The translations under genes were made by a program, and so were the position numbers. A model generated the notes under the pieces. The model saw only the letters and a program-made list of their open reading frames with translations, searched no databases and had not been told where the DNA came from. 64,000 bases of DNA from an uncultured candidatus Brocadiaceae bacterium. GTDB taxonomy: Bacteria; Planctomycetota; Brocadiia; SM23-32. This document shows positions 36,326 through 53,900 of this stretch, one piece after another. The DNA lies in the NCBI GenBank assembly GCA_964448935.1, contig CAYVBE010000001.1, positions 9,422 through 73,421 on the forward strand. The letters run 5' to 3'. Within the stretch, counting starts at the first letter, position 1. Each line of letters opens with the position of its first letter.

Positions 36326-36354
36326 TTGCACGCACCGCAAGGCTCTGCTAAAAT
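36326..36354 (+). promoter_or_regulatory. near-consensus sigma70 promoter upstream of the giant secreted-protein gene
   Basis: TTGCAC (36326-31), a 17-nt spacer, then TAAAAT (36349-54). It leaves a roughly 125-nt leader before AAGGGAG-tt-ATGATG at 36482/36485. Confidence 0.5.
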
Positions 36355-36481
36355 CGGCGCGAACAAAACCGGGATTCAGGACCACTAAGTCCTGTGAAGA
36401 TTGCCTGAGAAGAGGTGTGCCATCCGCAAGCGACCGTCGGTCATCGCTCGCATGTGCCATACAAAGCGCAGAAAGGGAGTT

Positions 36482-39400
36482 ATGATGCATAAGCAAGGCA
36501 GGAGGGCGAGTTCCTGTTTCCTTTCCGTTCTCATCGGTCTGTTTGTGTTCCTTCTGGCGCAGGGAGGGCCTTCATTCTCCGCCTATGTGGAGCGCCCCAA
36601 TCCCAGGCCTTCTTCGGCGATAGCCCTTTTTGGCGATCATAGCCGAGAATTCGAGTGGTACGATACCAACAACCCCCCAGACACCGAATACCGAGTTGGT
36701 GTGAGTGAGTTGGGCGGAGGATCGGGAGTCTGGGGTTTTTACAAGATCAGCCAGACGAAGTCAACGCCGGCCGGGGAGACCGATGGACCTTTCACGGCGA
36801 ACTGCCAGAATTTCTTGATTGGAATTTCGAGGGAATGGCCCTGGCAGAGCCCTGACCTTCCGGGTGACCCGAGGGTGGTGCCGGAGGGAGAGCCCGATCC
36901 CGACGGTGAGGACTTCTACACGGGCATGTTGCCGAACTTCACTTATGCCTGGCAGGTTCAGACGAGAGCGCCGGGAGGAGACTGGGAGGAGGGTCGCCAG
37001 TGGGTGGTTCATACCCCGATAGCGAAGCCCGGAATGAATTTTGATCCATCTCCTCACGGTGCTCTCAGCGTGGGCGTGTATCCGCGTTTTGTGTGGAGTG
37101 AGCATCCGCATCTGCCGGACTTTCCCCAGGCGAAAGTCCTGCTGGTGGATCTGGACGAGGGTGACCCTAATTATAGCAAAGGTTGGGTTGATAACGATGG
37201 CAATATCAACGAGGATAGGGTTGTAAAGACCTACGCCCCCAATGACGGGGATGCGCCTGCTATTGACAAGATCCGAGAGTTCTGGCACTTCGACGAGAAC
37301 TGGCAGCGCCTGTTGCCGAATCGCAACTACGCATGGCGGATAGTCTATTGCGACGACGAGGGGAATGCTTTGTTCGACGACAGGGAGCAGCCGGGTGAGG
37401 ACCCGGAAGACCCTCCCGAAGATCCGAACGACCAGAAGGATGCCGGAGAGCCTTACCTGTGGGCAGACGGCGGTGGGGACACCGCGGATGGCTGGCAATT
37501 CAGGACTGTCGGAGAGATTACCAGTGCGGAGTTGAACAGCCCAAACACGAGATCGCTGATAATCTATTGGCAGAGCATGTACGGTACACTGGACCCGGAC
37601 CCGTGGGAGGGGGATTTCACCTTCGCGAGCGTGGCCGAAGATATTGAGTACATTCATGAGCAGATCCACGATCCTGCCATTTCAACGGCCATCGTAGGGA
37701 CACAAGAGGTGACCGCGTCCTACGGAGGGCTGCACAACGATGATGCCAGACGTGCGAACTGTACCGATCAGGCGCCCTGGCCGGACGAAATAACAGGGTT
37801 CGAAGGTTGGTACACGATGGGGCGAAGCGCTCGGAACAATGCGGGAATGGACCCGGGGCCCACCCACGTGCGCGGGACGCAAGACCGCTACAGGGAATGG
37901 ACAGCACGGGGCATACGGACGCTGTTGCAGGACACGACCAACAAAACGGGCTTTGGCGGTATCAGTGACCGTGCGTATGCGGAGCACCTGGAGCAGGTGA
38001 CTCTCCTGGGTGACGCGGACCATGTTGCGCCAAGCTTCTATCACCATTACCAGATTGGGTCGGCCCACAAGTGGGTGGGAACGGATTTCTTCTACTCCAC
38101 TCAGAACGACACGTCCGCTGTGGAGCTACACCCCGCCTTCCAAGTTAGCCGAATTCCCTTGCAGCAGAAGAGCGAAGACAATTACCGCACCTATGAGGCT
38201 TCTTTTGCTGACCCGCGAACTACGGTCGGTCGGGCTTACGCGGATCCAGAACCTGTTGTCGAGAAAATCTGGGATTTTTCCGCCATCCTGAGTGAAAGCC
38301 ACACGGGAAATCCGGCGGCCAAGTCAGACGCTTATCAGGACTGGTTCGGCCGTGCGGTGGTTGTGGCAGGAGGGACGAATCTCTGGGAATGGTTCCAGTT
38401 TTTTCCCGCATTTGTGCAGAACCTGCTCAGTGGTCAGGTTGCTGCTGTTGGCGGACCACGTGATACATTCGCCGGTCTTAAAGTCAGGCAATACAACATG
38501 TGGGGAGCTGGCGAAGAAGCGCTTAGCCCTGCCAACGTGCTACGGCATCTGACCAAACCGGAGGCCGATGCTGTGCCCGGTTTTGTCTACTTGCTTGCTC
38601 ACGGCCAGGACTGGCAGGATCTTGGTGATCAGACAGTGCTCGATCCCTTCGGCCAGGTTATCGAAGACAATGACTTCGACCGAACCTGGGATGCTCCTCA
38701 CGGGAGGCGTCCTTTGCTCATATCGGCTGCTGGCCAAAACAATCGGTTCGACACCCATCTATGGGGTTCCAATGAGCCCTGGACGTCTCTGGGAGAGGCC
38801 GCATGTCTGGCGCGAGGTGGGCCTATTGGAATCATTGGTTTTGCAAGCGCGGATTACTGGGAGTCGGCCGAACACAGCAAAACGTATCCAGACGGTGGAA
38901 CAACCAGCCGTAGTTTCCGCAGCAGCGGTGTGGACGACATCGAAGGACATGTCTGGCCAGACATAGACCAGGGCCAGGTGTCACTTGCGGCTGCCAGCGA
39001 TCCGGCTTCGCCACTGCGCGGCAAGATTGAACTGATAAAGCTCATAGCCGAGCGATATCAGAGTAGCACAAACCCGGGTATCGGGGACGTTCTCAACAAC
39101 GCTCTTGCAGAATATGTGGAAGCGCACGCCACTGAGCTTGAAAACGCTGACGACCAGTCTGTGGTTACAACTGTCTTTGGCGCTTGCTTGTTAGGCGATT
39201 CGGCGCTTTCGCTGCCCCCACGTCAACGACCCGACTTGGATAAAGCCCGGCCAGTAATCACGGATGAGAACCTCCGCTCTGTTGCTTCACCGAGTGGATA
39301 CGATGCGACTCCGGGTTATAATTCAGCAGGTATGCCAGTGCATGTCATCGCACGGTGGGATCCGGATACCGAAACTAACCCTGGCACGCCAGTAGAACTG

Positions 39401-42175
39401 ACCATTGAAACCGACGCCGACAACGTGCGCGTCCGCGTTATGACCCCGTTCGATTTCGGACTGGATGGGCAGTGGTATGATCCGACGACGGACCATTGGT
39501 CTGACACGGAGCCAGATCAGTACCTTGACAGTTCGAGCGGTTCGTGCAACTACACGTTTACGGCATTCAAGCCTTCCATCTACCTGATTGTGGTACAGGC
39601 TGAAAACCCTGCGTGGGACGGCACTGATCCCGATGATCCGTACCGCTGGCTGAAGGAAAGGTGGTTCTATGTCCAGGTGGTCAACGAGTTCGAACGCAAT
39701 CCGGATGCGAACATTCTTGTTGTGGATATGGATCAGCCGGACCGGTACTACCTCAACGGACACGGGACATTTTACTCCCATGTCGAGGACTATTATGTAA
39801 ATCTGCAGGACATAAACGATTTGGACGGATTCAACTCTGGTGACAACGGCGAGGTCGATCCGAGAACTCTCACAGAGCAACCGGCACTGCCCATACTCAA
39901 CTACCTTACGGGGCAAAACGGGCCCGGGGCTCCCTGGCCTTGGGATTACGGATACCAGTACTGGTGTACGCAGGTGTACCATACGCTCCAGCCAAATGCC
40001 CAGGCGATTCTGGATGGCCAGAGATACTATGGCGATCTGACACCGTCCGCGATCGAGTCGTTCAGGGACACATACGGTCCATTGGTGGTGTTTACCGGCG
40101 ACTCAATCGTTTCCCGTGGTGGCGCGCTAATCTCATTCCCGCACCGTTACCTTTTCCTCTATAATTCCATGCCATTTCCGGACGTAAACTTCCTCCAGAA
40201 CTTTCTCGAAATGGGCGGGAAGCTGTTCGTCACTAATCAGACCCTGTCGAACGAGACCGACAATGTTCCGTATCTCGCTACATTCCAGGAGGACTTCCTT
40301 GGTGCCGTAACCGCCACGGAAGACTCGGATTACAGCAACATGGAGGGCCTATTCGACGACACCATGAGCAAGCTCATTCAGGACCTGGAGATCGAAGGTG
40401 GGAACGGGGAAAGCAACACCATAGTCAGCGCAGAGCTGGATCCTAACGGCACAGGGGCTGCAACCGTTTTCATCTGGGATGAACAAGCAGGTGGTGGTGA
40501 ACTGAACAGCAGCAAATCAGCGGCTATCCACAACCGCCTCATTGCCAACGCCGCGCGAACACTCTACTTCCCATGGCCTTTCGAGTCTATCGACCATGCG
40601 CTCCAGGGAAATACGCTGGACTTCTCTGGCCGGGTCAATGTGATGAAGCAGGCATTGGAATGGTTGCAAAGCGTTGCCGCAGCCGGTAACCCCATCCCTG
40701 CTAACGGCGCAGTGGATGTTCCGTTGAATATTACCTTCGAGTGGAGTGAAGTGACAGAGTCCGACGGGTACGAGGTGTATTTTGCCGAAAGCGGCCAGGC
40801 GTTGACACTGGTGGCCGACATAACCAATACGGCAGACAATGACCTGGGTCCCGGTGATGCGGGTTACCCTGGTCCCCTGACAGCTGACACTCAGTATGTC
40901 TGGCGCGTGGCCACCAAGAATCCCGGTGGCGGCACCACTACACCGGATACCTTATGGCAGTTCCGGACCGTCAGCCTCACGGCCAGTAATCCGAATCCGC
41001 CGGACGGTGCGACCGGTGTCAGCCCGGCCGTAACGCTTTCGTGGAGTGGAGCGGTCGATCTGACTGATCCCGCGGAAGTGTACGAAGTTTACCTGTGGGA
41101 GGACGGCGATCAGATACAATTGGTGGACACCATAGCCGACGCCACGGAGTACACACCTCCGGCGCCACTGGCTGAGGGCATTTTGTACAATTGGCGCGTG
41201 GACAGTGTGATAGACGGAATGAACTATGAGGGTGACCCGTGGGAGTTCGAGACTGCGACGGCCGACCAGGCGTTCAACCCCGACCCGGTTGATGGTGCAA
41301 CGGGTGTGCCTGTGGACAAGACACTATCCTGGTCTGGTCCGCCCACTGCGCAGACTTACGATGTCTTTCTCGGCCAGGGGAGCCTGCCCGGAACGCCCAC
41401 GGTGTCCGGTCTGAACACGCCACAGTTCGATCCACCGACGGACCTGACCGAGGGGGCGACATACGTATGGAGGGTGGATGTGAACCACACACCTGCCAGC
41501 GGCCTGGGCACGGTACAGGGGCTCGAATGGACGTTTACTGTAGAGACAGCGGGTGCCGCATCGAACCCCGTGCCCGCTGACGGCGCCAACGGTGTCTCGT
41601 TGATTACACTTCTTTCGTGGCTGGGTCAGGCGGATAGCTACGACATCTACTTCGGCGCCGGCAGCCTGCCGGGCACGCCTAACCAGACCGGGCTCACCGT
41701 CAACTTCTGGTATCCGGGCCAGCTTACGGCCAACACGACTTATGTCTGGCGCGTTGACAGCCACATCGGCGCCAGTACAGTGATCGGCGCCGTTTGGACC
41801 TTTACCACGGGCACGCAGCAGCAGCCCGACGACGGTGGCGGCGGTGGTGGCGGCGGTGGCGGATGCTTCATTGCTACGTCTGCCATGGAGGGCGTTGCGC
41901 CTGCAGCCCCGGGTCTGGTGGAACGCAACTGCACCGGCGAGTACGTGCTGCCCGAAGACAGGGCACGGGGGCTGGAGCTTATCCGCGGCCTGCGGGACGA
42001 CCTGCTGATGCGGGCGAAGCCCGGCCGACAGTTCAGCGCCTGGTACTACGCCTTCGGGCCCTACGCCGCCGAGGCAATACGCCACCGCGAGCCGGCCAAG
42101 GCCGTGGTGCGCGGCGTGCTGCTGCGGCCTCTGGCGGGACTGTCCGAAGACTGCCTGACAAGGGAGCAGGAGTAG
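36482..42175 (+). CDS. giant secreted multidomain protein (about 1,900 aa) with a gingipain-like (peptidase C25-like) cysteine-protease region, tandem Fn3-like repeats, poly-Gly linker and a C-terminal CFIATSA-motif domain
   Basis: Signal peptide MMHKQGRRASSCFLSVLIGLFVFLLAQG. The central region has a His...Cys arrangement (VYLLAHGQDW ... EAACLARGGPIGIIGF) and a GDADHV segment reminiscent of clostripain/gingipain-type proteases (tentative). There are four to five ~95-aa repeats (NPxPxDGATGV...LSWSG...Y[DE]VY[FL]G...TY[VN]WRVD...W[ET]F[TR]T). G10 is followed by CFIATSAMEG.... The gene has lower GC than its flanks. Confidence 0.7.
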   Translation: MMHKQGRRASSCFLSVLIGLFVFLLAQGGPSFSAYVERPNPRPSSAIALFGDHSREFEWYDTNNPPDTEYRVGVSELGGGSGVWGFYKISQTKSTPAGETDGPFTANCQNFLIGISREWPWQSPDLPGDPRVVPEGEPDPDGEDFYTGMLPNFTYAWQVQTRAPGGDWEEGRQWVVHTPIAKPGMNFDPSPHGALSVGVYPRFVWSEHPHLPDFPQAKVLLVDLDEGDPNYSKGWVDNDGNINEDRVVKTYAPNDGDAPAIDKIREFWHFDENWQRLLPNRNYAWRIVYCDDEGNALFDDREQPGEDPEDPPEDPNDQKDAGEPYLWADGGGDTADGWQFRTVGEITSAELNSPNTRSLIIYWQSMYGTLDPDPWEGDFTFASVAEDIEYIHEQIHDPAISTAIVGTQEVTASYGGLHNDDARRANCTDQAPWPDEITGFEGWYTMGRSARNNAGMDPGPTHVRGTQDRYREWTARGIRTLLQDTTNKTGFGGISDRAYAEHLEQVTLLGDADHVAPSFYHHYQIGSAHKWVGTDFFYSTQNDTSAVELHPAFQVSRIPLQQKSEDNYRTYEASFADPRTTVGRAYADPEPVVEKIWDFSAILSESHTGNPAAKSDAYQDWFGRAVVVAGGTNLWEWFQFFPAFVQNLLSGQVAAVGGPRDTFAGLKVRQYNMWGAGEEALSPANVLRHLTKPEADAVPGFVYLLAHGQDWQDLGDQTVLDPFGQVIEDNDFDRTWDAPHGRRPLLISAAGQNNRFDTHLWGSNEPWTSLGEAACLARGGPIGIIGFASADYWESAEHSKTYPDGGTTSRSFRSSGVDDIEGHVWPDIDQGQVSLAAASDPASPLRGKIELIKLIAERYQSSTNPGIGDVLNNALAEYVEAHATELENADDQSVVTTVFGACLLGDSALSLPPRQRPDLDKARPVITDENLRSVASPSGYDATPGYNSAGMPVHVIARWDPDTETNPGTPVELTIETDADNVRVRVMTPFDFGLDGQWYDPTTDHWSDTEPDQYLDSSSGSCNYTFTAFKPSIYLIVVQAENPAWDGTDPDDPYRWLKERWFYVQVVNEFERNPDANILVVDMDQPDRYYLNGHGTFYSHVEDYYVNLQDINDLDGFNSGDNGEVDPRTLTEQPALPILNYLTGQNGPGAPWPWDYGYQYWCTQVYHTLQPNAQAILDGQRYYGDLTPSAIESFRDTYGPLVVFTGDSIVSRGGALISFPHRYLFLYNSMPFPDVNFLQNFLEMGGKLFVTNQTLSNETDNVPYLATFQEDFLGAVTATEDSDYSNMEGLFDDTMSKLIQDLEIEGGNGESNTIVSAELDPNGTGAATVFIWDEQAGGGELNSSKSAAIHNRLIANAARTLYFPWPFESIDHALQGNTLDFSGRVNVMKQALEWLQSVAAAGNPIPANGAVDVPLNITFEWSEVTESDGYEVYFAESGQALTLVADITNTADNDLGPGDAGYPGPLTADTQYVWRVATKNPGGGTTTPDTLWQFRTVSLTASNPNPPDGATGVSPAVTLSWSGAVDLTDPAEVYEVYLWEDGDQIQLVDTIADATEYTPPAPLAEGILYNWRVDSVIDGMNYEGDPWEFETATADQAFNPDPVDGATGVPVDKTLSWSGPPTAQTYDVFLGQGSLPGTPTVSGLNTPQFDPPTDLTEGATYVWRVDVNHTPASGLGTVQGLEWTFTVETAGAASNPVPADGANGVSLITLLSWLGQADSYDIYFGAGSLPGTPNQTGLTVNFWYPGQLTANTTYVWRVDSHIGASTVIGAVWTFTTGTQQQPDDGGGGGGGGGGCFIATSAMEGVAPAAPGLVERNCTGEYVLPEDRARGLELIRGLRDDLLMRAKPGRQFSAWYYAFGPYAAEAIRHREPAKAVVRGVLLRPLAGLSEDCLTREQE
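40688..41850 (+). repeat. tandem Fn3-like domain repeats within the giant protein (protein-level; DNA diverged)
   Basis: The four to five consecutive ~95-aa units listed above. The motif is shared at about 35-45% aa identity. Confidence 0.65.
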
Positions 42176-42179
42176 GAAG

Positions 42180-43178
42180 ATGTTCGGCAGACGCAGGGCA
42201 CTTCTGAGGCGACTGCTGACCGCGGCCTCCATACTGCTGGCCGTTGGCACGGGCGGGGCTGCCTACCTGGCCTTCTTCCGCGCATCCGACACTACGCAAC
42301 TCACCCGACCATCGGCCGATTCGGGAATGAAGTCCCGGCAGTCGGCCGATGCACCGTCCGAGGACCGCGACCTGTCCGTGCTGTGGGAGGGGCGCGACGC
42401 GCAGAAGTCCGTCGTCCCCCCGCCGATGGGGGGAGCCCTGGATGGTGAGGCGGAACGTGAGCGGGTGCCCTTCAAGCTGCGTGGGGTTATCTACTCCGGC
42501 GCGGGGGATTCCGTGGCCTTCGTCGAGGTAGGAGACCAACTGCGGCTGCTCGGGCCGGACTCCGAGCTGCAGGGCTGGAAGGTAGCCGCCATCCATCCTC
42601 GGTCCATGGTGCTCAAGCGGGACGACGCCGAGTTCAGCATCTCCATCGAGAGCCTGTCTGTGACCGAACGGCCCGTGGCCGACCTGACCGCGGGCGACGG
42701 GGCGGCGGACACTGAGGCAACCGAAGACGCGGCCAATGTGGAGAGGAGCGTGGTGACCGCAGGAACTGACTCCGAGGGGGTTGCCGACATCCGGGAAACC
42801 GCCGAGGTAAGCAGTCGGGAACGGGAGTACTCACCGCCGCCTTTGCAGGGGGCGGAGGCGCGGGTGCGCGTGCCAAAAGACCTTGTCGAGAAGGTGCGGG
42901 AGGACCCGCGCAGCGTCGAGTACGGCGTGCGCTATAGCTGGCAGCTCAGCCCGAACGGGAAGATAGCCGGCTACAGCATAGACAAGGTCGAGCCCGGCTC
43001 GCTGGCCGCCCGCTACGGCCTGGCCCCGGGGGACCGCGTGCTGGCCGTTAACGGCGTCCCGCTGGACACTCCGACCCGCGCGCTGGAACTCTACCGGCGT
43101 TACCGCAATTCCGATTCCGCCAGGGTTACCATCAACCGCCACGGGGAAACCAAAGACGTGCTCTTCTACGTGCGGTAG
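42180..43178 (+). CDS. gspC: GspC-like protein (N-terminal TM anchor, central Ala/Glu-rich region, C-terminal PDZ domain)
   Basis: MFGRRRALLRRLLTAASILLAVGTGGAAYLAFF is the TM helix. The C-terminal ...GYSIDKVEPGSLAARYGLAPGDRVLAVNGVPLDTPTRALELYRRYRNSDSARVTI is a PDZ fold. It starts 5 bp after the giant gene stop and faces the T2SS cluster. Confidence 0.55.
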   Translation: MFGRRRALLRRLLTAASILLAVGTGGAAYLAFFRASDTTQLTRPSADSGMKSRQSADAPSEDRDLSVLWEGRDAQKSVVPPPMGGALDGEAERERVPFKLRGVIYSGAGDSVAFVEVGDQLRLLGPDSELQGWKVAAIHPRSMVLKRDDAEFSISIESLSVTERPVADLTAGDGAADTEATEDAANVERSVVTAGTDSEGVADIRETAEVSSREREYSPPPLQGAEARVRVPKDLVEKVREDPRSVEYGVRYSWQLSPNGKIAGYSIDKVEPGSLAARYGLAPGDRVLAVNGVPLDTPTRALELYRRYRNSDSARVTINRHGETKDVLFYVR

Positions 43179-43183
43179 AACGG

Positions 43184-43205
43184 CCTCAGCCGCCCCCGGC
43201 TGAGG
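43184..43205 (+). terminator. hairpin directly 3' of the gspC-like stop
   Basis: cctcagcc-gccccc-ggctgagg is a perfect 8-bp stem starting 6 nt after the TAG. No U-tract follows. Confidence 0.45.
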
Positions 43206-43695
43206 TACGGGCGGTTCGTGCAGCGCGCACGGTTGATGTGTAGCGCAGCCACCCGCGGCGGCGAAAACGGATGCATGCGGAAGCCGCGGTCGGGATCGTT
43301 TCGCCTGAAAGGCGTAAACATATCAGCCCAGGGCAGAGCCCGCAGGGCGTCGCCCTGGGAACCGTGGCCGTTCCAATTGGTAGCCCTGACAGGGCGGAAC
43401 CCGGCTCTTCAATCCTCCCGTCCCTGGTGGTGAAGACGAAGGGCGGGAACGGGCACGGATAATGACGGACGCGTGTTGGCCTACTGATGTGCCGCCCTTT
43501 CAGGGCTCGATTTTCCTTCTGCGTTTCTACCCAGGGCTGCTAAAGCAGCTGGAAGAACGCTCGGCGTTCTTCATGGGACCGAGTGGCACATGAATGCCCT
43601 TCGGTCCCCGCTGCGCCCTTCGGGCTCTGCCCCGGGCTTTTATATCGCGCCCTTTCAGGGCGCCATTTACGAACGTTCTCGGTTGGTCAGGCTAA

Positions 43696-43949: not shown

Positions 43950-44077
43950 CTAAACGCCTACGCCCGAACTCGGGGGACCACCGGGCCAGGCTGCGACCCT
44001 TCTCGGTTGACCACGCTGCACGCCTGAGAAGCATCCTTCCCGGTTTGCGCGGTCCGCGCAAGCGCTCGGTGCCGGCC

Positions 44078-44752
44078 CTACTCCTGCACGGCCTCATCGG
44101 GCAGCTTTGGGCGCGGGTCCACGGTGCGGTCTGCCAGGGGCATGGCGATGCACGTGGGGTGCGGCGGGTCGGCCTCGGGGTGCAGGGCCAGCTCCATCCG
44201 CACGGCTATTGGGGGCTTGTTGAGCGACCACTGCCGGCGCCACTCCGAGCCGTCGTAGCAGTCCACCAGCACGAAGGCCACCTCGTCCACCAGGCGCTGC
44301 TCCGCCGCGTGGCGCCAGTCCGGGCTGGAGCCCGGCTCGTAGGGCGTCTGCTGGCGCAGAAGCTCGTAGCCTTCCGCCTCCTCGTCGCGCGGGCGCAGGA
44401 GGTATCGGACGCGCTGCACGTCGGGCGGGGCATCCGAATGGGGCAGGGCGGACAGGGTCGTCAGTTCAAGGACCGTCCCGCCGTCCGTGGGAAACTCGGG
44501 CGGCACCACCACCGGCGGGAGTTGCTCGTCGGGAATCGGCACGAGGGCCTCCACGTCCCACCGCAGAATGCGCGCCACGCCGTAGCCCAGGCGTGCACGG
44601 CGCAGCGTCTGCCGGGAGCGCTGCATACCGCGGACCGTCAGCCGAAGAACGCCCGAGACGGTTACCATGAGCAGGGCGGTGATCGCCAGCGCACAGATGA
44701 CCTCCATGAGCGTGAAACGCCAGCGGGGCGCACCGTGGTGGGAGGCGTTCAC
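44078..44752 (-). CDS. gspJ: type II secretion minor pseudopilin, GspJ-like
   Basis: N-terminal prepilin-type segment APRWRFTLMEVICALAITALLMV (Glu+5 present, Gly-1 replaced by Arg). It is 224 aa and the last gene of the pseudopilin run. Confidence 0.6.
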   Translation of the reverse strand: MNASHHGAPRWRFTLMEVICALAITALLMVTVSGVLRLTVRGMQRSRQTLRRARLGYGVARILRWDVEALVPIPDEQLPPVVVPPEFPTDGGTVLELTTLSALPHSDAPPDVQRVRYLLRPRDEEAEGYELLRQQTPYEPGSSPDWRHAAEQRLVDEVAFVLVDCYDGSEWRRQWSLNKPPIAVRMELALHPEADPPHPTCIAMPLADRTVDPRPKLPDEAVQE

Positions 44753-45192
44753 GGGCTCTCCTCCTCCGAGGAGCGCTGCAGCAGCCAGACGGTGGCCCGC
44801 ACCTGTTCCGCAGCGCGCCGGTCTTCAACCGCTTCGCCGGGCGGGGGGGAGACGCTGACGGTGAAGGCACTGAGTCCCGACGGCGCCCCGTGGGGCGGGT
44901 CTTCTTCCGCGATGGACCAGGTGTAGCCCTCGGCATCCGGAAAGGGGCCGGTGCCCGGCTGTGCTATGCCGGCCTTCAGGTCCGCCACGCGGCCCTGGCA
45001 GAGCCGGACGGCGGTGAGGATGCGGCCTGCCCGGCCGGTGGCTTGCACAGCCCGCGCGCGGGCGACGAGCAGCCCGGCGCAGACGAGGCCCAGTATGGCC
45101 ACCGCGGCGGCGACCTCCACCAGCGTGAAGCCCGAGCGCCGTGCCGAGTCGCTACAGCTCCGATGCGGTTGTGCGTTCATAGCTCGGCTCAC
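44749..45192 (-). CDS. gspI: type II secretion minor pseudopilin, GspI-like
   Basis: ...RRSGFTLVEVAAAVAILGLV is a prepilin cleavage/methylation motif. It is 147 aa and has an ATGA overlap with the gspJ-like gene. Confidence 0.65.
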   Translation of the reverse strand: MSRAMNAQPHRSCSDSARRSGFTLVEVAAAVAILGLVCAGLLVARARAVQATGRAGRILTAVRLCQGRVADLKAGIAQPGTGPFPDAEGYTWSIAEEDPPHGAPSGLSAFTVSVSPPPGEAVEDRRAAEQVRATVWLLQRSSEEESP

Positions 45193-45655
45193 CCGTGAGG
45201 GGGCTGAATCGTATGCGAATCACGGAATATTCGCCGGTCCCCAGCAGCACTTCGTGGTCCGTCACCGTGCCGTCCGGATAGGCGAAACAGGCGGCCACCT
45301 CCTGCTGGACCGTGTTGAAGCCGAATTTGACCCATTCGAACCGCACGCCGGCGGGCAGTTTGTGGAAGGCCTGCGCCTCCTCGTCCACCTCTACCCAGAA
45401 TTGCCCTGCGGGCACGTCGTAGAGGATGCGGGCACGGTCTCCCGACAGTGCGGCGGCATTGCGTGCCCACTGGAGCGTTGTGGCCACCTGGTGGGCGGCT
45501 GCGCGGAGGCGCCAACGGGGCAGGCGGTTGAGCCTGGGCACCATCAGCGTGAGCACCAGGGCGAGCACGGCCAGCGTGACCGTCAGCTCCAGAACGGTGA
45601 AGCCGCCGTCACTCGCCGCCCTGCGCGTGGAGTTCCCAGCTATTGATGTCGGCAT
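45152..45655 (-). CDS. gspH: type II secretion pseudopilin, GspH-like
   Basis: ...SDGGFTVLELTVTLAVLALVLTLMV is a prepilin motif. The start was chosen at ATG 45655. The longer ORF to 45895 has no support. The chosen start would overlap gspG by 47 bp, so the true start may be further downstream. Confidence 0.6.
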   Translation of the reverse strand: MPTSIAGNSTRRAASDGGFTVLELTVTLAVLALVLTLMVPRLNRLPRWRLRAAAHQVATTLQWARNAAALSGDRARILYDVPAGQFWVEVDEEAQAFHKLPAGVRFEWVKFGFNTVQQEVAACFAYPDGTVTDHEVLLGTGEYSVIRIRFSPLTGEPSYERTTASEL

Positions 45656-46079
45656 CGGGACCTTCGCCTCCCTCCGTGCCGTCGCGTCCGTAGGAGATGA
45701 TGTCGAACTTGCCTTGCGCGCCGGGGTAGATGTAGTCGTATTCGTTGCCCCAGGGGTCGCGCGGGACGGCTTCCAGGTATCCGCCCTCGGGCCAGTCGGT
45801 GACGCGCTCGTCCTCCGGCGGGGTGACCAGGGCCTCCAGCCCCTGCTGCGTGGAGGGGTAGAAGTTATTGTCCTGGTAGAACAACTCCAGGGCATCCTTC
45901 AGCTCCTGTATCTGGATGCGGGCGATGCGGGTCTTCGCGCGTTCGAGCTGCCCGCTGACCACGGTGACCACGATCCCGGCGATGAGGCCGAGTATGAGCA
46001 CGACGGTCATGACCTCCAGCAGCGTCAGGCCCTCCCGCCGCCACAGGCTCAGGCGTCCGGTGTCTTCTTTTCTTCTCAT
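45609..46079 (-). CDS. gspG: type II secretion major pseudopilin GspG
   Basis: ...[24 protein letters not shown] plus the GspG signature [41 protein letters not shown]. Confidence 0.92.
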   Translation of the reverse strand: [156 protein letters not shown]

Positions 46080-46102
46080 TAAAACTGCTCCGGTTTACGG
46101 TG

Positions 46103-47311
46103 TCAGATGTTGCTCAGTTCCAGAATCGTCATCATAAGCGACAGGGCGATGAACCCCACCACGGCGGCCATAATCAGCACCAGCACGGGCTCCAGGACCG
46201 TCAGCAGCCGCCGTGAGGCGATTTCCACCTCCAGGTCGTAGGACTCCGAGACGTGTTCGAGCACTTCTTCCAGGTTTCCGCTGCGCTCTCCGACGGCCAC
46301 CATGTAGCCCACCATGGGCGGAAACAGCCGGCTCTCGCGCATCTGCGAGGACATGTCCTTGCCCTCCACCACGGCCTGTCGTATCTGGTCTATCTCCCGG
46401 CGCAGTATCTCGTTGGGCGTCAGCGAGGCCAGCGTCTCCAGCGCCTCCAGCGCGGGCACACCGGTGCGCAGCAGCGTGGAGAAGGACATGCTGAAGCGGC
46501 CCAGCAGGCTCTTCTTCACCAGCTTTCCGATGAGCGGGATGCGCAGCACCAGCCGGTCCAGGAAGATTCGGCCCCGTTCGGTGCGCCGCGCCCAGGCCAG
46601 AGCCAGGAAGAGGAGCGCCGCGAGCGGCAGCGCCAGCCAGATGTAAGTGCGCACGAATCCGCTGGCCGCGAAAAGCATGGACGAAGTGATGGGCAGCCCG
46701 CCCTGATGCTGTGAGAGCAACGGCTGCAGCATGGGCACCACGACGGCCGAGAGGAAGATGATGAGCGCCACGGCCATGACGACGAGGATGGAGGGGTAGA
46801 TCAGGGCGGTGGCCACTTGTGAGCGCAGCATGCGTCGGCGCTCCAAAAAATCCGCCAGCCGCCGGAACACCACGTCCATCATGCCGCTCTTCTCGGCGGA
46901 GGTTACCATCTCGATGTAGGCGCGATCGAAGAAGCGGGGATAGTTCCCGAGCGCTTCGGCCAGGGAGAGTCCGGAATTGACCGCCTCGCGCGCCTCCAGC
47001 AGGGCGCGGGAGAGGCCCTTGTGCTCCACCTGCCGGCTCAGCACGTCCAGGGCCTCGGCAATGGGCACACCGCTGGCCAGAAGCACCGCGAACTGGCGCG
47101 TGAAGATGGTGACGTGCTGCGCCGCCCGCGCGCCGGCGCCGGGCAGCACGGCGGGCAGGCCGCCGCCTCCGCTCTCGGCGGGCTCGACCTTTTGGGGGAA
47201 CAGCTCCATGGAGCGCAACTGCCGGCGGGCGTCCATGGGGTTGTCCGCCACCAACATGCCGCGCACCACGTCGCCGGATTCGTTGACTGCCTTGTAGCGG
47301 AAGCTGGCCAT
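46103..47311 (-). CDS. gspF: type II secretion inner-membrane platform protein GspF
   Basis: FRYKAVNESGDVVRG..., two GspF/PilC repeats (...TRQFAVLLASGVPIAEALDVL... and ...FSTLLRTGVPALEALETLA...). The start is trimmed to the ATG at 47311 (MASFRYKA), 2 nt after the gspE stop. Confidence 0.92.
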   Translation of the reverse strand: MASFRYKAVNESGDVVRGMLVADNPMDARRQLRSMELFPQKVEPAESGGGGLPAVLPGAGARAAQHVTIFTRQFAVLLASGVPIAEALDVLSRQVEHKGLSRALLEAREAVNSGLSLAEALGNYPRFFDRAYIEMVTSAEKSGMMDVVFRRLADFLERRRMLRSQVATALIYPSILVVMAVALIIFLSAVVVPMLQPLLSQHQGGLPITSSMLFAASGFVRTYIWLALPLAALLFLALAWARRTERGRIFLDRLVLRIPLIGKLVKKSLLGRFSMSFSTLLRTGVPALEALETLASLTPNEILRREIDQIRQAVVEGKDMSSQMRESRLFPPMVGYMVAVGERSGNLEEVLEHVSESYDLEVEIASRRLLTVLEPVLVLIMAAVVGFIALSLMMTILELSNI

Positions 47312-47313
47312 GG

Positions 47314-49080
47314 TCAGGAGGAATCCCGCTGAGTCACACGCAGCACCTCTTCCACCGTTGTCACGCCGGCCATGGCCTTCTGGGCGCCGTCTTCGCGGAG
47401 GACCTTCACGCGGTCGGCCACCACCTTCTGGCGTATCTCGCTGGAGGAGGCGCGGCGGTTGATCAGGCGCTGGCACTGGTCGTCTATGGGCAGCAGCTCG
47501 AAGATGCCGATTCGCCCGCGGTAGCCGGTGCCCAGGCACGCGTCGCAGCCATCGCCGCGCCGGAAAGTGGCGTCGGCCGCCTGCTCCGGCGTGAGGCCCA
47601 GCAGGTCAAGCTGCCCCTGCGAGACCTCGGCGGGGCGCGCGCAGTCCGGGCAGATGCGCCGCACCAGCCGCTGCGCCAGCACTGCCAGCAGCGCGGAGGA
47701 GATCAGGAACGGCTCCACCCCCAGGTCCAGCAGGCGTGCGATGGCGCCCGCCGCGTCGTTGGTGTGCAGGGTGCTGAACATCAAGTGTCCGGTCAGCGAG
47801 CTCTGCACGGCCATCGAGGCGGTCTCGCCATCGCGAATCTCGCCGATCATGATGATGTCCGGGTCCTGTCGCACGATGGAGCGCAGCATGGAGCCGAAGG
47901 TCACGTTCTTGCGCGCCTGCACCTGTATCTGGCTCACGCCGTCCAGCTTGTATTCCACCGGGTCCTCGATGGTGATGATGTTCATTTCGGGGGAGTTGAT
48001 CTCCATCAGCGATGCGTAGAGCGTGGTGCTCTTGCCGCTGCCGGTGGGCCCGGTGACCAGGATCATGCCGTGGGAGTAGCGGATGAGTTCTTTGAAGGTG
48101 GCCAGGTTCTCCCGATCCAGGCCGAGTTCTTCGAGGGTCAGCAGCTTCTCCTGCTTGTCCAGCAGCCGCAGGACCGCGCGCTCGCCATCGCTGGTGGGCA
48201 CCACGGACATGCGGACGTCAATCTCCCGGTCGGCGTATCGGAACGATGCCCGCCCGTCCTGCGGCGCCCGGCGCTCGGCGATGTCCATCTTGCCCAGCAC
48301 CTTGATGCGCGACATGATGCCGTCGCGGGCGGAGCGCGGCAGGTCCAGGATGTCGTGCAGGATGCCGTCCGTGCGGAAGCGCACGCGCAGGCGGTCGCCC
48401 ATGGGCTGGAAGTGGATGTCGGTGCTGCCGGTGCGGACCGCCTGGGCGATGAGCAGGGAGACGAGTTTCACCACGGGAGCCTTGCGCATCAGCTCGCCGA
48501 AGTCGGTCACCCGCTCGACTTGCGCCACGCTCTCGGCCAGCTCCTCGTCGGTCAACTCCCCGGCGGCGCTTTCCAGATATTCCGGCCGCTGCCGCACGGA
48601 CCTGTCCACGCAGTCCGCCACCTCGGAGGCGGGGGCCAGGCGGCAGGATACCGGCACGCGGAACAGCCCGCCCATCTCGCCGATTATCTGTCCGATGTCG
48701 GGGCCGGGCGCCAGGGCCAGCTCCAGTCGCTCGTCCGTCAGGGCGGTGGCGCAGACCCCTTCGCGTCGGGCGTACTCCGGCGGCACGCGCTCGAAGAAGC
48801 CCTCTGGCACGACGCAGCCCGCCAGGCTCTCCTCGCAGGGCATGCCCAGGTAGCGGGCCAGCGCGGGCAGCAGGTCCTCCTCCGGGATGCCGCCTTCTTC
48901 CATAATGATGGTGACGGCGGGGTGCCAGTCCTTGCGCATCTGCTCGCGCAGCCGCTCCGCCTCGGCCGGCGTGATGACCTCCTCGGTCAGCAGCGCGTCT
49001 ATGAGGGTGGCGTCTCTGGCGGTTGTGCTGGAAATGGCTTGATATCCCTTCCGGTTATTCCTCGGTCTTGTTCTCGTCAC
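47314..49080 (-). CDS. gspE: type II secretion ATPase GspE
   Basis: GSPII_E N-domain. Walker A LVTGPTGSGKSTTL. Asp box, His box, and C-terminal tetracysteine CPDC...CDAC... zinc motif. Confidence 0.93.
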   Translation of the reverse strand: MTRTRPRNNRKGYQAISSTTARDATLIDALLTEEVITPAEAERLREQMRKDWHPAVTIIMEEGGIPEEDLLPALARYLGMPCEESLAGCVVPEGFFERVPPEYARREGVCATALTDERLELALAPGPDIGQIIGEMGGLFRVPVSCRLAPASEVADCVDRSVRQRPEYLESAAGELTDEELAESVAQVERVTDFGELMRKAPVVKLVSLLIAQAVRTGSTDIHFQPMGDRLRVRFRTDGILHDILDLPRSARDGIMSRIKVLGKMDIAERRAPQDGRASFRYADREIDVRMSVVPTSDGERAVLRLLDKQEKLLTLEELGLDRENLATFKELIRYSHGMILVTGPTGSGKSTTLYASLMEINSPEMNIITIEDPVEYKLDGVSQIQVQARKNVTFGSMLRSIVRQDPDIIMIGEIRDGETASMAVQSSLTGHLMFSTLHTNDAAGAIARLLDLGVEPFLISSALLAVLAQRLVRRICPDCARPAEVSQGQLDLLGLTPEQAADATFRRGDGCDACLGTGYRGRIGIFELLPIDDQCQRLINRRASSSEIRQKVVADRVKVLREDGAQKAMAGVTTVEEVLRVTQRDSS

Positions 49081-51010
49081 GGCCCTCGGGTGTCGGCACG
49101 GCTTCGGAGGGCAGCATGGCTCCCTTTTCCTCCGCTTTGTCCGCCAGTTCCTGACGGCGCCGGCGTGCTTCGGCAGTCATGGTCTCCGCCGTTCTGTGCA
49201 CGGTCGGTGTGATGAAGATGCAGAGGTGCCGTTCCTCATCGGTCTCGACCGTGCGCCGGAACAGGGCGCCCAGGATGGGAATGCGACCCAGGATGGGGAT
49301 GGCGCGGACCGTCTTGGACTTGGTGGTGCGGGTCAGGCCCCCGAAGACCACCGTGTTGCCGTCCGGCACAGTGACTTCGGTCTCGGCCGTCCGCTCGGTC
49401 TTGTTGGTCAGTCTGATCCCCTCCGAGGTGGTGGTGCTGGGCAGGAACTGGTCTACTTCGGTAAGCACCTTCAGCCGCACGGTGCCCTCGTCGTTGATGT
49501 GAGGGGTGATCTCCAGGTTGATGTTGGCCTCGTGGAAGCCGCCGCTGGTGATCTCCCGCGTTCCGGCCTCCGGGGAGAGGATGCTCTTGGCGAACTCCCG
49601 CTTCTCGGCGATTGTGACGGAGGCAGCCTTGTTGTCCACCGTTGTGATACGCGGGCCGGCCACGAAGGAGATGCCCTCGTCCTTCTGCGAAGCCCGGACC
49701 AGAGCGGCTATCTTGGTGGCCTCGTCCTTGAATATACCGGCCGTCAGTCCGCCCTCCGTCGGGGGTATGGGGACTCGGCCTGCCGTGGTGAGTTCGGACA
49801 GGCCGAAGGTGGTGCCGCCGAAGCCCCGAGGGTCGTCACTCGGTCCGTCTATGGAGTTCAGCTCGATTCCGATGTCCATCAGCCGGTTGGTACTGATTTC
49901 GATCAGCACCGCCTCGATCTCCACCTGAGCCCTGGGCCTGTCCAGGTCTTCCAGCAGGGGCAGCAGTTCCTGGTAGCGCGGCTGCGTGGCGATGAGGATC
50001 AGCGCGCTGTTGGCCGCGTCCGCGATGATCTCCAGGGGCTCGCGCGCGGCGCCGCGTACCTCGCCCTCGGGGTTGCTGGCGTTCAGGACCGCGTCCAGCG
50101 TCTGTTTCAGGTCGTCCACGTCGCGGTTCAGCACGTTGTAGATGTGGTACTGCCGCGCGGATTCGTCCGGCTTCACGTCGAAGGTCTCGATGTACTTCAC
50201 GATGCGGGGTATGTCCTGCGGGTCGCCCAGGAGCACCAGGGAGTTGCGCGGGCGGTTCAGGGTGATGGAGAACTGCTCCAGCCGCTTCTTCAGCGCCGGG
50301 CTGGCCTGGCTCTTCAGGCTGTTCAGGTAGTCGGTGGCCACCGTGTGCAGGGTCTCCACGGAGCTCTGCTGTGCCTGGTAGACCCGGTGGGTTAGCTCGC
50401 CGTCGCTGCGATCGAGCTGACGGATGAGCGCGCGCATGGCGGACACGTTGACGCCGTGATCGGTGATGACGAGCTGGTTGAGGTCCGGATAGGGCTGGAT
50501 CTTCCCTGCGGCCGACTTCAGGGGGGTCAGGACGCCGGTGAGGGCCTGGGCGTCGGCGTTCTTCAGCTCCACGGTCACGGTGCGGATGGCGTCGCTCTGC
50601 AGACCCGCTGCGGCCTCTTCGCCCACGGGCAGTCCGTCCGCCTTGCCGGACGGGGCGATCTCTATGTAGCCGCCGCGGTCCAGCACGGTGTAGCCGGCCT
50701 TGCGCAGCACGCCGCTGAAGACGCCCATGGCCTTCTCACGGGAGACCTGCACCCCGGCGCCGCTGACCACGTCCACCGGGGCCTCGCCCGGAAAGCGCTC
50801 GGGCAGCAGGACGGGCTTGCCGGTCTGCTGGCTCAGAAACTCGATCACCGAACTCAACGTCACCCCGGAGAGCGTGATCTGGTATCCCTCTTCGCCTTCC
50901 GCGGGCTGCGCGGTGTCCGGCGGCCCGTTTTCCTCCGCCGAGTGGACGCGGAAGGGCGCATGCATCAGGGCCAGAAGTGCCAGGAAGACGAGCGGACCGG
51001 TCTTTCTCAT
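49055..51010 (-). CDS. gspD: type II secretion outer-membrane secretin GspD
   Basis: Signal peptide, N0/N1-type domains, and secretin core ...VQVEIEAVLIEISTN...VVFGGL...VRAIPILGRIPILGALFR. Confidence 0.9.
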   Translation of the reverse strand: MRKTGPLVFLALLALMHAPFRVHSAEENGPPDTAQPAEGEEGYQITLSGVTLSSVIEFLSQQTGKPVLLPERFPGEAPVDVVSGAGVQVSREKAMGVFSGVLRKAGYTVLDRGGYIEIAPSGKADGLPVGEEAAAGLQSDAIRTVTVELKNADAQALTGVLTPLKSAAGKIQPYPDLNQLVITDHGVNVSAMRALIRQLDRSDGELTHRVYQAQQSSVETLHTVATDYLNSLKSQASPALKKRLEQFSITLNRPRNSLVLLGDPQDIPRIVKYIETFDVKPDESARQYHIYNVLNRDVDDLKQTLDAVLNASNPEGEVRGAAREPLEIIADAANSALILIATQPRYQELLPLLEDLDRPRAQVEIEAVLIEISTNRLMDIGIELNSIDGPSDDPRGFGGTTFGLSELTTAGRVPIPPTEGGLTAGIFKDEATKIAALVRASQKDEGISFVAGPRITTVDNKAASVTIAEKREFAKSILSPEAGTREITSGGFHEANINLEITPHINDEGTVRLKVLTEVDQFLPSTTTSEGIRLTNKTERTAETEVTVPDGNTVVFGGLTRTTKSKTVRAIPILGRIPILGALFRRTVETDEERHLCIFITPTVHRTAETMTAEARRRRQELADKAEEKGAMLPSEAVPTPEGRDENKTEE

Positions 51011-53790: not shown

Positions 53791-53900
53791 CTTGTCCCAG
53801 CCGGCCCTGTTGTCCCTGTTATCTGCATGTAGAACAATAACATACGATTGCCCGCGCCGCAACCATCCGTTCGGCGATTGCGGGCCGCTGCGCACACCGG

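What the first reader, a model, noticed from the sequence alone, without database searches (positions are those of the whole stretch)
36326..43205. Giant protease-like secreted protein co-transcribed with a GspC-like PDZ protein, facing a complete T2SS: candidate dedicated cargo module
A 1,915-aa exported protein with its own near-consensus sigma70 promoter is followed 5 bp later by a bitopic PDZ-domain protein with GspC topology, and a hairpin follows its stop. The protein carries a gingipain/C25-like core, four to five Fn3-like repeats, a Gly10 linker and a C-terminal Cys-Phe-Ile-Ala-Thr-Ser-Ala domain.

The pair converges on the 10-gene gspL...gspJ operon. GspC is the T2SS component usually implicated in substrate and secretin recognition, and here it is uncoupled from the machinery operon and coupled to a single very large putative substrate. 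That is an unusual one cargo, one specificity factor arrangement.

The C-terminal poly-Gly plus CFIATSA domain looks like a sorting or anchoring signal and deserves identification.
Basis: partly seen in the sequence, partly recalled or inferred. Interest (0 to 1): 0.8.

Follow-up and report, generated by a model that had tools for sequence, protein, structure and literature searches.

The report
Dead-protease giant protein paired with GspC
An uncultured planctomycete encodes a 1,897-residue exported protein, built around a gingipain-like domain that has lost its catalytic residues, always in a two-gene unit with the GspC subunit of a type II secretion system; this makes it a plausible but unproven dedicated cargo and a possible natural model for how that machine picks its substrates.

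Summary
The described genes are present. The giant ORF (36482-42175, 1,897 aa) has a Sec signal peptide, a C25-like core, four Fn3-like repeats, a Gly10 linker and a C-terminal domain. A GspC-like TM-HR-PDZ protein follows 4 nt later and converges on a gspL-M-K-D-E-F-G-H-I-J operon that has no gspC of its own.

Three corrections:
- The "protease" is a pseudopeptidase. The canonical C25 His/Cys dyad is present in 27 of 32 distant true C25 relatives. In the giant family His occurs in 1 of 20 and Cys in 0 of 20.
- The C-terminal "CFIATSA" domain is the catalogued CFI-box-CTERM domain (NF041770). It is modelled confidently as a small helical bundle and lacks the TM-plus-basic tail seen in several canonical members examined here.
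- The promoter is weak (8 of 12 matches).

New evidence: giant→gspC adjacency holds in all 10 distinct loci examined. This includes four loci where no T2SS genes lie in the retrieved flanks. In a near-identical strain the T2SS (96% nt) and the CFI-box plus gspC (89-95% nt) are conserved, but the giant body is only 62-74% identical.

T2SS cargo status remains inference. It is a new variant of a known theme (cargo genes beside T2SS genes).

The parts
36326..36354 (+). Candidate promoter TTGCAC-17 nt-TAAAAT (weak)
   Evidence: Read from the sequence. It matches 3/6 + 5/6, and the consensus scan did not report it.
36482..42175 (+). Giant gene, 1,897 aa: signal peptide, Fn3-like N-region, C25-like pseudopeptidase core, conserved middle region, four Fn3-like repeats, Gly10, CFI-box-CTERM
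   Evidence: ORF and translation. Eight full-length or near-full-length homologues at 35-52% identity. About 20 family members in the representative search.
36482..36583 (+). Sec-type signal peptide (MMHKQGRRASSCFLSVLIGLFVFLLAQGGPSFSA)
   Evidence: Read from the sequence. Homologues have the same basic-hydrophobic-AxA layout.
36584..37558 (+). N-terminal region related to the C-terminal Fn3-like repeats
   Evidence: hhalign of the N-region against the C-terminal repeats: probability 90%, E 1.4e-6.
37559..39301 (+). C25 (gingipain)-like core. The canonical His position is residue 707 (38600-38602, His here). The canonical Cys position is residue 751 (38732-38734, Gly here).
   Evidence: PF01364 is above cutoff in orthologues P0009, P0006, P0002 and P0007. 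A profile of the core retrieves bona fide C25 peptidases. Dyad tally.
39302..40675 (+). Conserved middle region of unknown fold (many invariant residues)
   Evidence: Alignment A1. No Pfam hit. Not related to the core by hhalign.
40676..41815 (+). Four tandem Fn3/Ig-like repeats (residues 1399-1778)
   Evidence: Repeat alignment with 17 invariant columns. fn3 at 24.8 bits and Big_5 at 20.9 bits. PDB Fn3-like 3mpc at E 0.0045.
41834..41863 (+). Gly10 linker
   Evidence: A Gly-rich linker is present in nearly all family members.
41864..42172 (+). CFI-box-CTERM domain (103 aa) with a family-specific 22-residue beta-hairpin insertion and no TM tail
42180..43178 (+). gspC-like gene, 332 aa: TM about residues 12-33, HR-like block from residue 97, low-complexity linker, PDZ about residues 245-330
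43181..43209 (+). Hairpin after the gspC stop, with no U-tract
   Evidence: dG -22.1 kcal/mol, z -2.2.
44078..54066 (-). Convergent T2SS operon gspL-M-K-D-E-F-G-H-I-J, with no gspC inside it
   Evidence: NCBIfam hits for all ten ORFs. The same order is seen in L001, L004, L006, L007 and L016.

Best explanation
Shown:
- The giant gene encodes a Sec-exported, modular protein whose core descends from C25 (gingipain-type) cysteine peptidases but has lost the His/Cys dyad.
- It carries Fn3/Ig-like modules at both ends. It finishes with a Gly linker and a compact helical CFI-box-CTERM domain.
- It forms a tightly coupled two-gene unit with the only gspC seen for the neighbouring T2SS.

Inferred:
- The giant protein is a T2SS cargo.
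- After Sec export it is recruited in the periplasm through GspC. Recruitment probably uses its Ig-like repeats and/or the constant CFI-box end, rather than a C-terminal peptide.
- It is then pushed through the GspD secretin and acts outside the cell, or on the cell surface, as a binding protein (adhesin or ligand trap) rather than as a protease.
- Translational coupling makes GspC, and hence a working machine, appear together with this cargo.
- The body of the protein is exchangeable between strains, while the CFI-box end, gspC and the machine stay constant.
For: Synteny:
- Giant→gspC adjacency with a 0-17 nt gap holds in all 10 distinct loci (window). Giant identity across these falls to 35% and the outer flanks differ.
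- In four arrangements (L003/L011, L009, L008, L010+L012) the pair is kept although no T2SS genes lie in the retrieved flanks.
- Every T2SS operon seen lacks gspC.
- Only one GspC-like gene is present in the window.

GspC identity:
- TM-HR-PDZ layout, GspC models as best hits, and PDZ matches to OutC, EpsC and PulC.

Export and catalytic state:
- A signal peptide is present in all full-length homologues.
- Distant C25 relatives have His in 27 of 32 and Cys in 29 of 32. The giant family has His in 1 of 20 and Cys in 0 of 20.

Constant end, variable body:
- Compared with a near strain, the T2SS operon is 96% nt identical, and gspC plus CFI-box are 89-95%. The giant body is 62-74% nt and 67% aa identical, with the break near position 41765.
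- The body also has atypical GC3 (0.66 against 0.82-0.9 for neighbours).

Precedents:
- The EpsC PDZ domain is needed for only one cargo, VesB, and the signal lies in VesB's Ig-fold (PMC12369372).
- sslE sits immediately upstream of its T2SS genes and is co-regulated with them (PMC3707838).
- Omnitrophota giant genes lie next to T2SS-like loci (bioRxiv 10.1101/2023.11.21.568195).
Against: - No experiment or structure links the giant protein to GspC or to secretion. Linkage alone cannot separate cargo, accessory subunit or mere co-regulation.
- GspC scores fall below NCBIfam cutoffs (79 against 150; 52 against 102), and Pfam's T2SSC model does not hit.
- The CFI-box belongs to a series of putative C-terminal sorting domains. 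In canonical form it carries a TM-plus-basic tail, so a different, unknown sorting pathway could handle this protein.
- The constant-end/variable-body pattern may only reflect where homologous recombination can occur.
- The core could not be modelled (pLDDT 37).
- Whether a T2SS exists elsewhere in the genomes where the pair is unlinked was not checked.
Confidence: 0.45

Rival explanations
1. Linkage without cargo specificity. This gspC is simply the machine's general GspC, and it happens to be transcribed with a large exported protein. The giant protein is exported by Sec. It then stays in the periplasm, or it reaches the surface by a CFI-box-specific route unrelated to the T2SS.
For: - This is the only gspC seen for the operon, so it must serve all substrates.
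- Other exported enzymes lie nearby, such as a GH10 with a signal peptide.
- The CFI-box is a catalogued C-terminal domain also found on true C25 peptidases from other uncultured bacteria, where a TM-plus-basic tail follows it, as in sorting signals.
Against: - The pair stays together with 0-17 nt gaps in all 10 distinct loci, even when it has moved away from the T2SS operon and the other flanks are reshuffled. This is hard to explain without a functional tie.
- The giant family's CFI-box lacks the TM tail.
Confidence: 0.27
2. The giant protein is an accessory or structural partner of this clade's T2SS rather than a passenger. For example, it could be a periplasmic or surface scaffold that docks on GspC or GspD through its constant CFI-box end.
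For: - Obligate adjacency and apparent translational coupling with a machine subunit.
- The CFI-box end is co-conserved with gspC and the T2SS, while the rest of the protein varies.
- Catalytic residues are lost, which is consistent with a binding or scaffolding role.
Against: - A body that is only 67% identical between strains whose machines are 96% nt identical is unusual for a structural subunit. It is more typical of an exposed, exchangeable product.
- No known T2SS has such a component.
Confidence: 0.15
3. The giant protein is still an active hydrolase that uses non-canonical residues. One candidate site is the HExxH motif at residues 392-396. Another is the Cys two residues upstream of the canonical position in some homologues.
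For: - HE(N/S/Q)xH is invariant in the nine closest sequences.
- Five of those nine have a Cys at position -2.
Against: - HExxH is broken in most of the wider family, including P0043-P0047, P0050, P0051 and P0055.
- The -2 Cys is absent from the window protein and from the whole extended family.
- No metallopeptidase family hits were found.
Confidence: 0.07

Closest known systems
E. coli T2SS-beta cluster yghJ(sslE)-pppA-yghG-gspC-M
   Same: A very large exported protein (about 180 kDa) is encoded immediately upstream of its T2SS genes and co-regulated with them. It is both secreted and surface-retained (PMC3707838).
   Different: In E. coli the cargo heads the whole machine operon. Here only gspC travels with the giant gene, the other ten genes form a separate convergent operon, and the pair persists without them nearby. 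SslE is an active M60-type metalloprotease lipoprotein (PMC4014459). The protein here is a dyad-less C25 derivative with a CFI-box end.
Vibrio cholerae EpsC PDZ domain and VesB
   Same: The GspC PDZ domain acts as a cargo-selective element. The secretion information lies in an Ig-fold domain of a protease-family cargo (PMC12369372). VesB also carries a C-terminal sorting domain (GlyGly-CTERM; from my own knowledge).
   Different: In Vibrio, epsC sits in the machine operon and is not genetically paired with vesB. The interaction proposed here is untested.
Peptidase family C25 (gingipains, PorU)
   Same: The core is homologous. PF01364 is above cutoff in four orthologues, and the core profile retrieves C25 peptidases.
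   Different: The His/Cys dyad is lost. No Propeptide_C25 domain and no T9SS-type C-terminal domain were detected. The protein is much larger and is linked to a T2SS rather than a T9SS.
CFI-box-CTERM domain (NCBIfam NF041770)
   Same: The C-terminal 103 residues score 41 bits against a cutoff of 40. They start with the CFIAT motif and sit at the extreme C-terminus after a Gly-rich linker.
   Different: The domain has a 22-residue beta-hairpin insertion. It lacks the hydrophobic-plus-basic tail present in several canonical members examined here. No paper on this domain was found.
Omnitrophota giant genes next to T2SS-like loci
   Same: Very large exported proteins lie next to T2SS-like gene sets, and adhesion roles have been proposed (bioRxiv 10.1101/2023.11.21.568195). 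Both lineages are usually placed in or near the PVC group (my own knowledge).
   Different: Those proteins are far larger and have different domains. No gspC-cargo operon is described in that paper ('gspC' does not occur in its text).

Membership tests
GspC (T2SS inner-membrane clamp protein) | Single N-terminal transmembrane segment (bitopic topology) | tested here: met
   There is one hydrophobic stretch at about residues 12-33, following a basic N-terminus. It is conserved in 11 homologues. This was read from the sequence; no topology predictor was run.
GspC (T2SS inner-membrane clamp protein) | Periplasmic HR (homology region) domain that binds the secretin | tested here: inconclusive
   The NCBIfam GspC_delta alignment spans profile positions 59-306 of 311, and TIGR01713 spans 74-255 of 259, so both cover the HR region. 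Pfam gave PDZ-family hits only, with no GspC HR-domain model. No PDB HR domain was hit by sequence.
GspC (T2SS inner-membrane clamp protein) | C-terminal PDZ (or coiled-coil) domain | tested here: met
   PF17820 at 1.2e-9. PDB hits: OutC 6hcg_e at 2.4e-8, EpsC 2i4s at 7.7e-8, PulC 5hj1 at 2.9e-6.
GspC (T2SS inner-membrane clamp protein) | Score above the curated family cutoff | tested here: not met
   79.2 bits against 150 for NF041515, and 51.6 against 101.6 for TIGR01713. It is a divergent member at best.
GspC (T2SS inner-membrane clamp protein) | Genomic association with a T2SS that otherwise lacks gspC | tested here: met
   The gene lies next to a gspC-less L-M-K-D-E-F-G-H-I-J operon in 6 of 10 distinct loci. 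The whole genomes were not checked.
Peptidase family C25 | Match to PF01364 above the gathering score | tested here: inconclusive
   The window protein has no hit at E 0.1. Orthologues at 37-52% identity score 31.8-42.2 bits against a cutoff of 23.
Peptidase family C25 | Catalytic His and Cys dyad | tested here: not met
   hmmalign to the core profile shows that 27 of 32 true C25 relatives have both residues. The window protein has His707 but Gly751 at the Cys position. The family has His in 1 of 20 and Cys in 0 of 20.
Peptidase family C25 | N-terminal Propeptide_C25 domain and/or T9SS C-terminal domain, as in gingipains | tested here: not met
   No PF08126 hit and no T9SS C-terminal-domain family appeared among the Pfam or NCBIfam hits for the window protein or its orthologues.
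CFI-box-CTERM domain (NF041770) | HMM score at or above the curated cutoff, located at the extreme C-terminus | tested here: met
   41 bits against 40, covering residues 1795-1882 of 1897 and profile positions 1-67 of 69.
CFI-box-CTERM domain (NF041770) | Hydrophobic segment plus basic tail after the domain, as seen in several members (whether this is defining is not known) | tested here: not met
   The tail is present in P0037, P0058, P0059, P0071, P0075 and P0094. It is absent from the giant family, which ends in an acidic tail.
Type II secretion system (machine) | Core genes D, E, F, G, H, I, J, K, L, M and C | tested here: met
   All have NCBIfam T2SS hits. GspG is above its cutoff, and D, E and F are close to theirs. 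C is encoded separately. A prepilin peptidase (GspO) was not found in the annotated parts of the window.
T2SS substrate | Sec or Tat signal peptide | tested here: met
   The N-terminal signal peptide is conserved across homologues.
T2SS substrate | Secretion depends on the T2SS | not testable with these tools
   This needs genetics or proteomics. The organisms are known only from metagenomes.

The most novel reading that the evidence does not exclude
The Gly-linker plus CFI-box end is the constant docking or anchoring module of a T2SS-linked surface protein whose roughly 1,760-residue body is swapped between strains. GspC, always co-translated with it, would be its dedicated receptor. That would make this a natural one-to-one cargo-GspC pair and a first function for the CFI-box-CTERM domain.
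Probability: 0.2. Interest if true: 0.75.

Novelty: new variant of a known kind. Interest (0 to 1): 0.55.

Why it matters
How the T2SS recognises its folded substrates is a long-standing open question, and no general secretion signal is known. A gene pair that stays fused as cargo candidate plus GspC, even when it is separated from the machine, offers a defined pair to test. In-silico complex prediction and heterologous pull-downs would both be feasible.

The work also gives three further leads:
- It links the uncharacterised CFI-box-CTERM domain to a secretion context.
- It shows a clear case of a gingipain-type fold re-used without its catalytic dyad.
- It shows a surface-protein-like pattern of allele exchange with a sharply defined constant end.

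Tried and rejected
- AlphaFold model of the C25-like core with nine sequences gave pLDDT 37, which is unusable, so no fold search was run on it.
- Sequence searches of PDB with the full-length profile and the core profile gave only Fn3 hits or chance antibody hits.
- The afdb50 fold library was unavailable.
- Literature searches for CFI-box, CFIATAA and NF041770 found nothing.
- A word-based homologue search with the CFI-box profile returned mostly short fragments.
- A metagenome scan with the GspC profile returned only generic PDZ proteins, with no C25 or CFI-box neighbours.
- The genome-collection scan found only three loci that were already known.
- The exact-match look-up of the window's own protein found no record.
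- The HExxH metalloprotease reading was rejected because the motif is not conserved in the wider family.
- An internal-duplication reading (middle region related to the core) was rejected (hhalign probability 0.4%).
- Classical binding of the giant's C-terminal peptide by the PDZ domain was judged unlikely, because the last residues vary.
- The sigma70 'near-consensus' promoter was rejected.
Full report
**1. What is in the sequence**

The window has about 66% G+C. It carries core chromosomal genes (rpoC, rpsL, rpsG, fusA, rpsB, tsf, frr), a sulfatase and a MoxR/BatA cluster.

A single long ORF runs from 36401 to 42175. The first ATG codons with a ribosome-binding site (AAAGGGAG) are at 36482 and 36485. 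They give 1,897 or 1,896 aa, and the database copy P0001 is 1,896 aa. The N-terminus, MMHKQGRRASSCFLSVLIGLFVFLLAQGGPSFSA, is a typical Sec signal peptide. It aligns with equivalent N-termini in the homologues.

Four nucleotides after the stop codon, an ATG at 42180 opens a 332-aa ORF whose RBS lies inside the giant gene's 3' end. A stable hairpin without a U-tract follows that ORF's stop codon (dG -22.1 kcal/mol, z -2.2).

The proposed promoter, TTGCAC-17 nt-TAAAAT, matches only 8 of 12 positions and was not reported by the scan. Promoter-like hits in the region do not exceed the shuffles.

On the opposite strand, ten ORFs from 54066 to 44078 match GspL, M, K, D, E, F, G, H, I and J, in that order. 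There is no gspC among them.

**2. The PDZ protein is GspC-like**

- Its best NCBIfam hits are GspC models. GspC_delta scores 4e-22 over profile positions 59-306 of 311, and TIGR01713 scores 1e-13. Both are below the curated cutoffs.
- Pfam sees only the PDZ domain.
- A profile of 11 homologues hits the solved PDZ domains of OutC, EpsC and PulC. It also hits DegP and RseP PDZ domains.
- The alignment shows a conserved layout: an N-terminal TM segment, a conserved block PFKLRGVIYS…GDSVAF…GW.V..I, a low-complexity linker, and a near-invariant PDZ core GSLAARYGLAPGDRILAVNG.
- I treat the protein as a divergent GspC.

**3. The giant protein**

*C25 relationship.* Pfam and NCBIfam find little on the window protein itself. 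Only eight full-length or near-full-length homologues exist in the word-indexed database, at 35-52% identity and mostly labelled Planctomycetes or Planctomycetota MAGs. Four of them exceed the Peptidase_C25 gathering score, at 31.8-42.2 bits against 23.

A profile of the core (residues 360-940) searched against 1.8 billion representatives found 217 proteins:
- About 20 are family members of 1,400-2,600 aa.
- The seven distant relatives I re-scanned were mostly bona fide C25 peptidases. Six scored 1e-29 to 1e-51 on PF01364, often with a Propeptide_C25 domain. The seventh, P0042, is a family member and had no C25 hit.

*Loss of the catalytic dyad.* I aligned all hits to the core profile.
- In the true C25 proteins, the blocks xxGHGS and PVVVSxACxNGA carry His in 27 of 32 sequences and Cys in 29 of 32. 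Both are present in 27.
- In the giant family, the His position holds R, Q, E, S or Y in 19 of 20 sequences. Only the window protein has His (residue 707).
- The Cys position is never Cys in the family (0 of 20). It is Gly751 in the window protein.
- A Cys two residues upstream occurs in five close homologues, but not in the window protein or the wider family.
- The core is therefore a C25-derived pseudopeptidase.

*HExxH motif.* An HExxH motif at residues 392-396 is invariant in the nine closest sequences but broken in most of the wider family. I do not read it as a conserved metal site.

*Repeats.* Four repeats of about 95 aa occupy residues 1399-1778. They are 33-38% identical to one another and give weak fn3, Big_5 and PDB Fn3-like hits. 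The N-terminal 330 residues are related to them (hhalign probability 90%). Residues 941-1398 are conserved but unassigned.

**4. The C-terminal domain**

After exactly ten glycines, the last 103 residues match NCBIfam NF041770, CFI-box-CTERM, at 41 bits against a cutoff of 40. Nearly all family members have a Gly-rich linker followed by this domain.

Several true C25 peptidases from other uncultured bacteria have it too, one of them labelled Candidatus Ratteibacteria. In those proteins the domain has the canonical form CFIATAAYGS…LRxFRDxYL…GRxFVxxYY, followed by a hydrophobic stretch and a basic tail.

The giant family differs in two ways:
- It has a 22-residue insertion.
- It has no hydrophobic tail, and ends in an acidic, variable sequence.

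So the domain is identified but its pathway is unknown. In this family it looks like a folded module rather than a membrane anchor.

**5. Conservation of the arrangement**

I looked at every retrievable locus.

- In all 10 distinct loci, the giant gene is followed by the GspC-like gene on the same strand with a gap of 0-17 nt.
- In six of them (window, L001, L004/5, L006, L007 and the near strain L016-19), the pair converges on the same gspC-less T2SS operon.
- In four (L003/L011, L009, L008, L010+L012), no T2SS genes lie within the retrieved flanks, yet the pair is intact.
- The upstream neighbours differ almost everywhere.
- The GspC homologues found independently map one-to-one onto giant-gene loci.
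- Only one copy of each gene is present in the window.

The two genes therefore behave as a selected unit. gspC appears to have left the machine operon to travel with the giant gene.

**6. A constant end and a variable body**

Contigs from a closely related population (four samples, one allele at 99.9% identity) compare with the window as follows:

| Region | Nucleotide identity |
|---|---|
| T2SS operon | 96% |
| From about 41765 through the CFI-box and gspC | 89-95% |
| Giant gene upstream of 41765 | 62-74% (67% aa) |

The break falls at the end of the last Fn3 repeat.

In the window, the giant body also has GC3 of 0.66, against 0.82-0.9 for its neighbours and 0.85 for the CFI-box codons. 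The more distant orthologues have normal GC3 of 0.80-0.88; the near-strain allele is also low, at 0.74.

Synonymous divergence this large cannot have arisen in the time that left the machine 96% identical. The body was therefore replaced by recombination with a divergent allele. The CFI-box, gspC and the machine form the constant side.

This fits an exposed, exchangeable product with a constrained docking or anchoring end. It could also simply mark where homologous recombination is possible.

**7. Mechanism**

*Shown:*
- an exported, dyad-less C25 derivative with Ig-like modules and a CFI-box end;
- a conserved, probably translationally coupled operon with the only gspC seen;
- a neighbouring T2SS that has all core genes except gspC and a prepilin peptidase.

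*Inferred:* the giant protein is a T2SS passenger that is recruited through GspC and works outside the cell as a binding protein.

*Precedents that support plausibility:*
- In Vibrio cholerae, the EpsC PDZ domain is required for a single cargo, VesB, and the signal resides in VesB's Ig-fold (PMC12369372).
- In E. coli, sslE lies immediately upstream of its T2SS genes and is co-regulated with them (PMC3707838).
- Omnitrophota giant genes sit next to T2SS-like loci (bioRxiv 10.1101/2023.11.21.568195).

*Against the 'one cargo, one specificity factor' wording:* this GspC is apparently the machine's only one, and other exported enzymes are nearby, such as a GH10 with a signal peptide. The giant's last residues are not conserved, so a classical PDZ-C-terminus contact is unlikely.

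*Rivals:*
- co-regulation without cargo specificity, or a separate CFI-box pathway (0.27);
- a structural or accessory role in the machine (0.15);
- residual non-canonical hydrolase activity (0.07).

**8. Verdict**

- The GspC and T2SS calls hold, and the pairing is strongly conserved.
- The protein is not a protease by the canonical C25 dyad.
- The promoter claim fails.
- The C-terminal domain is a known but uncharacterised family.
- Cargo status remains an inference.

The arrangement is a new variant of a known theme (cargo genes beside T2SS genes). It has two features worth following up: gspC segregating with the putative cargo rather than with the machine, and the sharp boundary between constant end and variable body at the CFI-box.

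Noticed in passing
window 36482-41765 versus 41765-43185 and 44077-53435; loci L016-L019: In a near-identical strain, the giant gene body is only 62-74% nt (67% aa) identical. The CFI-box plus gspC are 89-95% identical and the T2SS operon 96%. The break lies at the end of the last Fn3 repeat. The window's giant body also has low GC3 (0.66, against 0.82-0.9 for its neighbours).
   Followed up: yes
window 43179-44077: The spacer between the convergent gspC and gspJ genes is 900 bp, against roughly 6-150 bp where the operon is adjacent in the more distant loci. It holds nested inverted repeats (46-nt arms at 43304/43614; 29-nt arms, 93% complementary, at 43693/43924). It does not align with the near strain's 640-bp spacer, so it may be an inserted MITE-like element. 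There is only a sub-threshold Rfam hit (Acido-Lenti-1, 25.4 bits against 37).
   Followed up: partly
window 53901-55520 (-): An ORF of about 540 aa with a signal peptide (MIPLKPMMLGLWTRRRRSFYRVAAAAACLLLSAAAAQP…) lies directly upstream of gspL on the same strand. It has no Pfam hit. It may be an eleventh, uncharacterised gene of the T2SS operon.
   Followed up: partly
window 37655-37669 (giant residues 392-396): An HExxH motif is invariant in the nine closest homologues but broken in most of the wider family. It is probably structural rather than a zinc site.
   Followed up: yes
window 34924-36189 (-): A GH10 glycoside hydrolase with a signal peptide is transcribed divergently from the giant gene. 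It is absent from this position in the otherwise syntenic locus L001. It is another exported protein that the T2SS might handle.
   Followed up: partly
L003 1-3301, L009 1-2186: In the lineage where the pair is not next to the T2SS operon, a very large secretin-family gene (1,231-1,239 aa; STN and Secretin domains, with a faint TPR_2 hit in L003) lies about 7-8 kb upstream of the giant gene.
   Followed up: no
L008 9227-13819: In this locus the pair is followed, on the same strand, by genes with LpxK, lipid A acyltransferase, PfkB/CTP-transferase, SIS and HAD-family domains. I read these as LPS-core genes (lpxK, an lpxL-like acyltransferase, hldE-like, gmhA-like, gmhB-like). This may be coincidence or a hint of surface attachment.
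   Followed up: no
L004 1-9508, L005 1-9508: Directly upstream of the giant gene in this lineage lie further very large genes. In L004 they are 1,789 aa and at least 2,599 aa. In L005 it is a single 4,375-aa product. Their domains include Peptidase_S8 and CLIPPER.
   Followed up: no
proteins P0058, P0059, P0071, P0075, P0094 (uncultured bacteria, one labelled Candidatus Ratteibacteria): These C25-related proteins all align to the C25 core profile. P0059 (full Pfam scan) has Peptidase_C25 and Propeptide_C25 hits and an intact His/Cys dyad; P0058 has neither dyad residue in the alignment, and P0071, P0075 and P0094 were not aligned across the dyad blocks. All five carry a Gly-rich linker, a canonical CFI-box and a hydrophobic-plus-basic tail. 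C25 plus CFI-box is therefore an older, recurring architecture.
   Followed up: partly
window 10287-22732 (+): A MoxR-DUF58-BatA/VWA cluster continues into two large ORFs with almost no family hits: 1,062 aa (one weak, sub-cutoff MG2 hit) and 1,539 aa (no hit).
   Followed up: no
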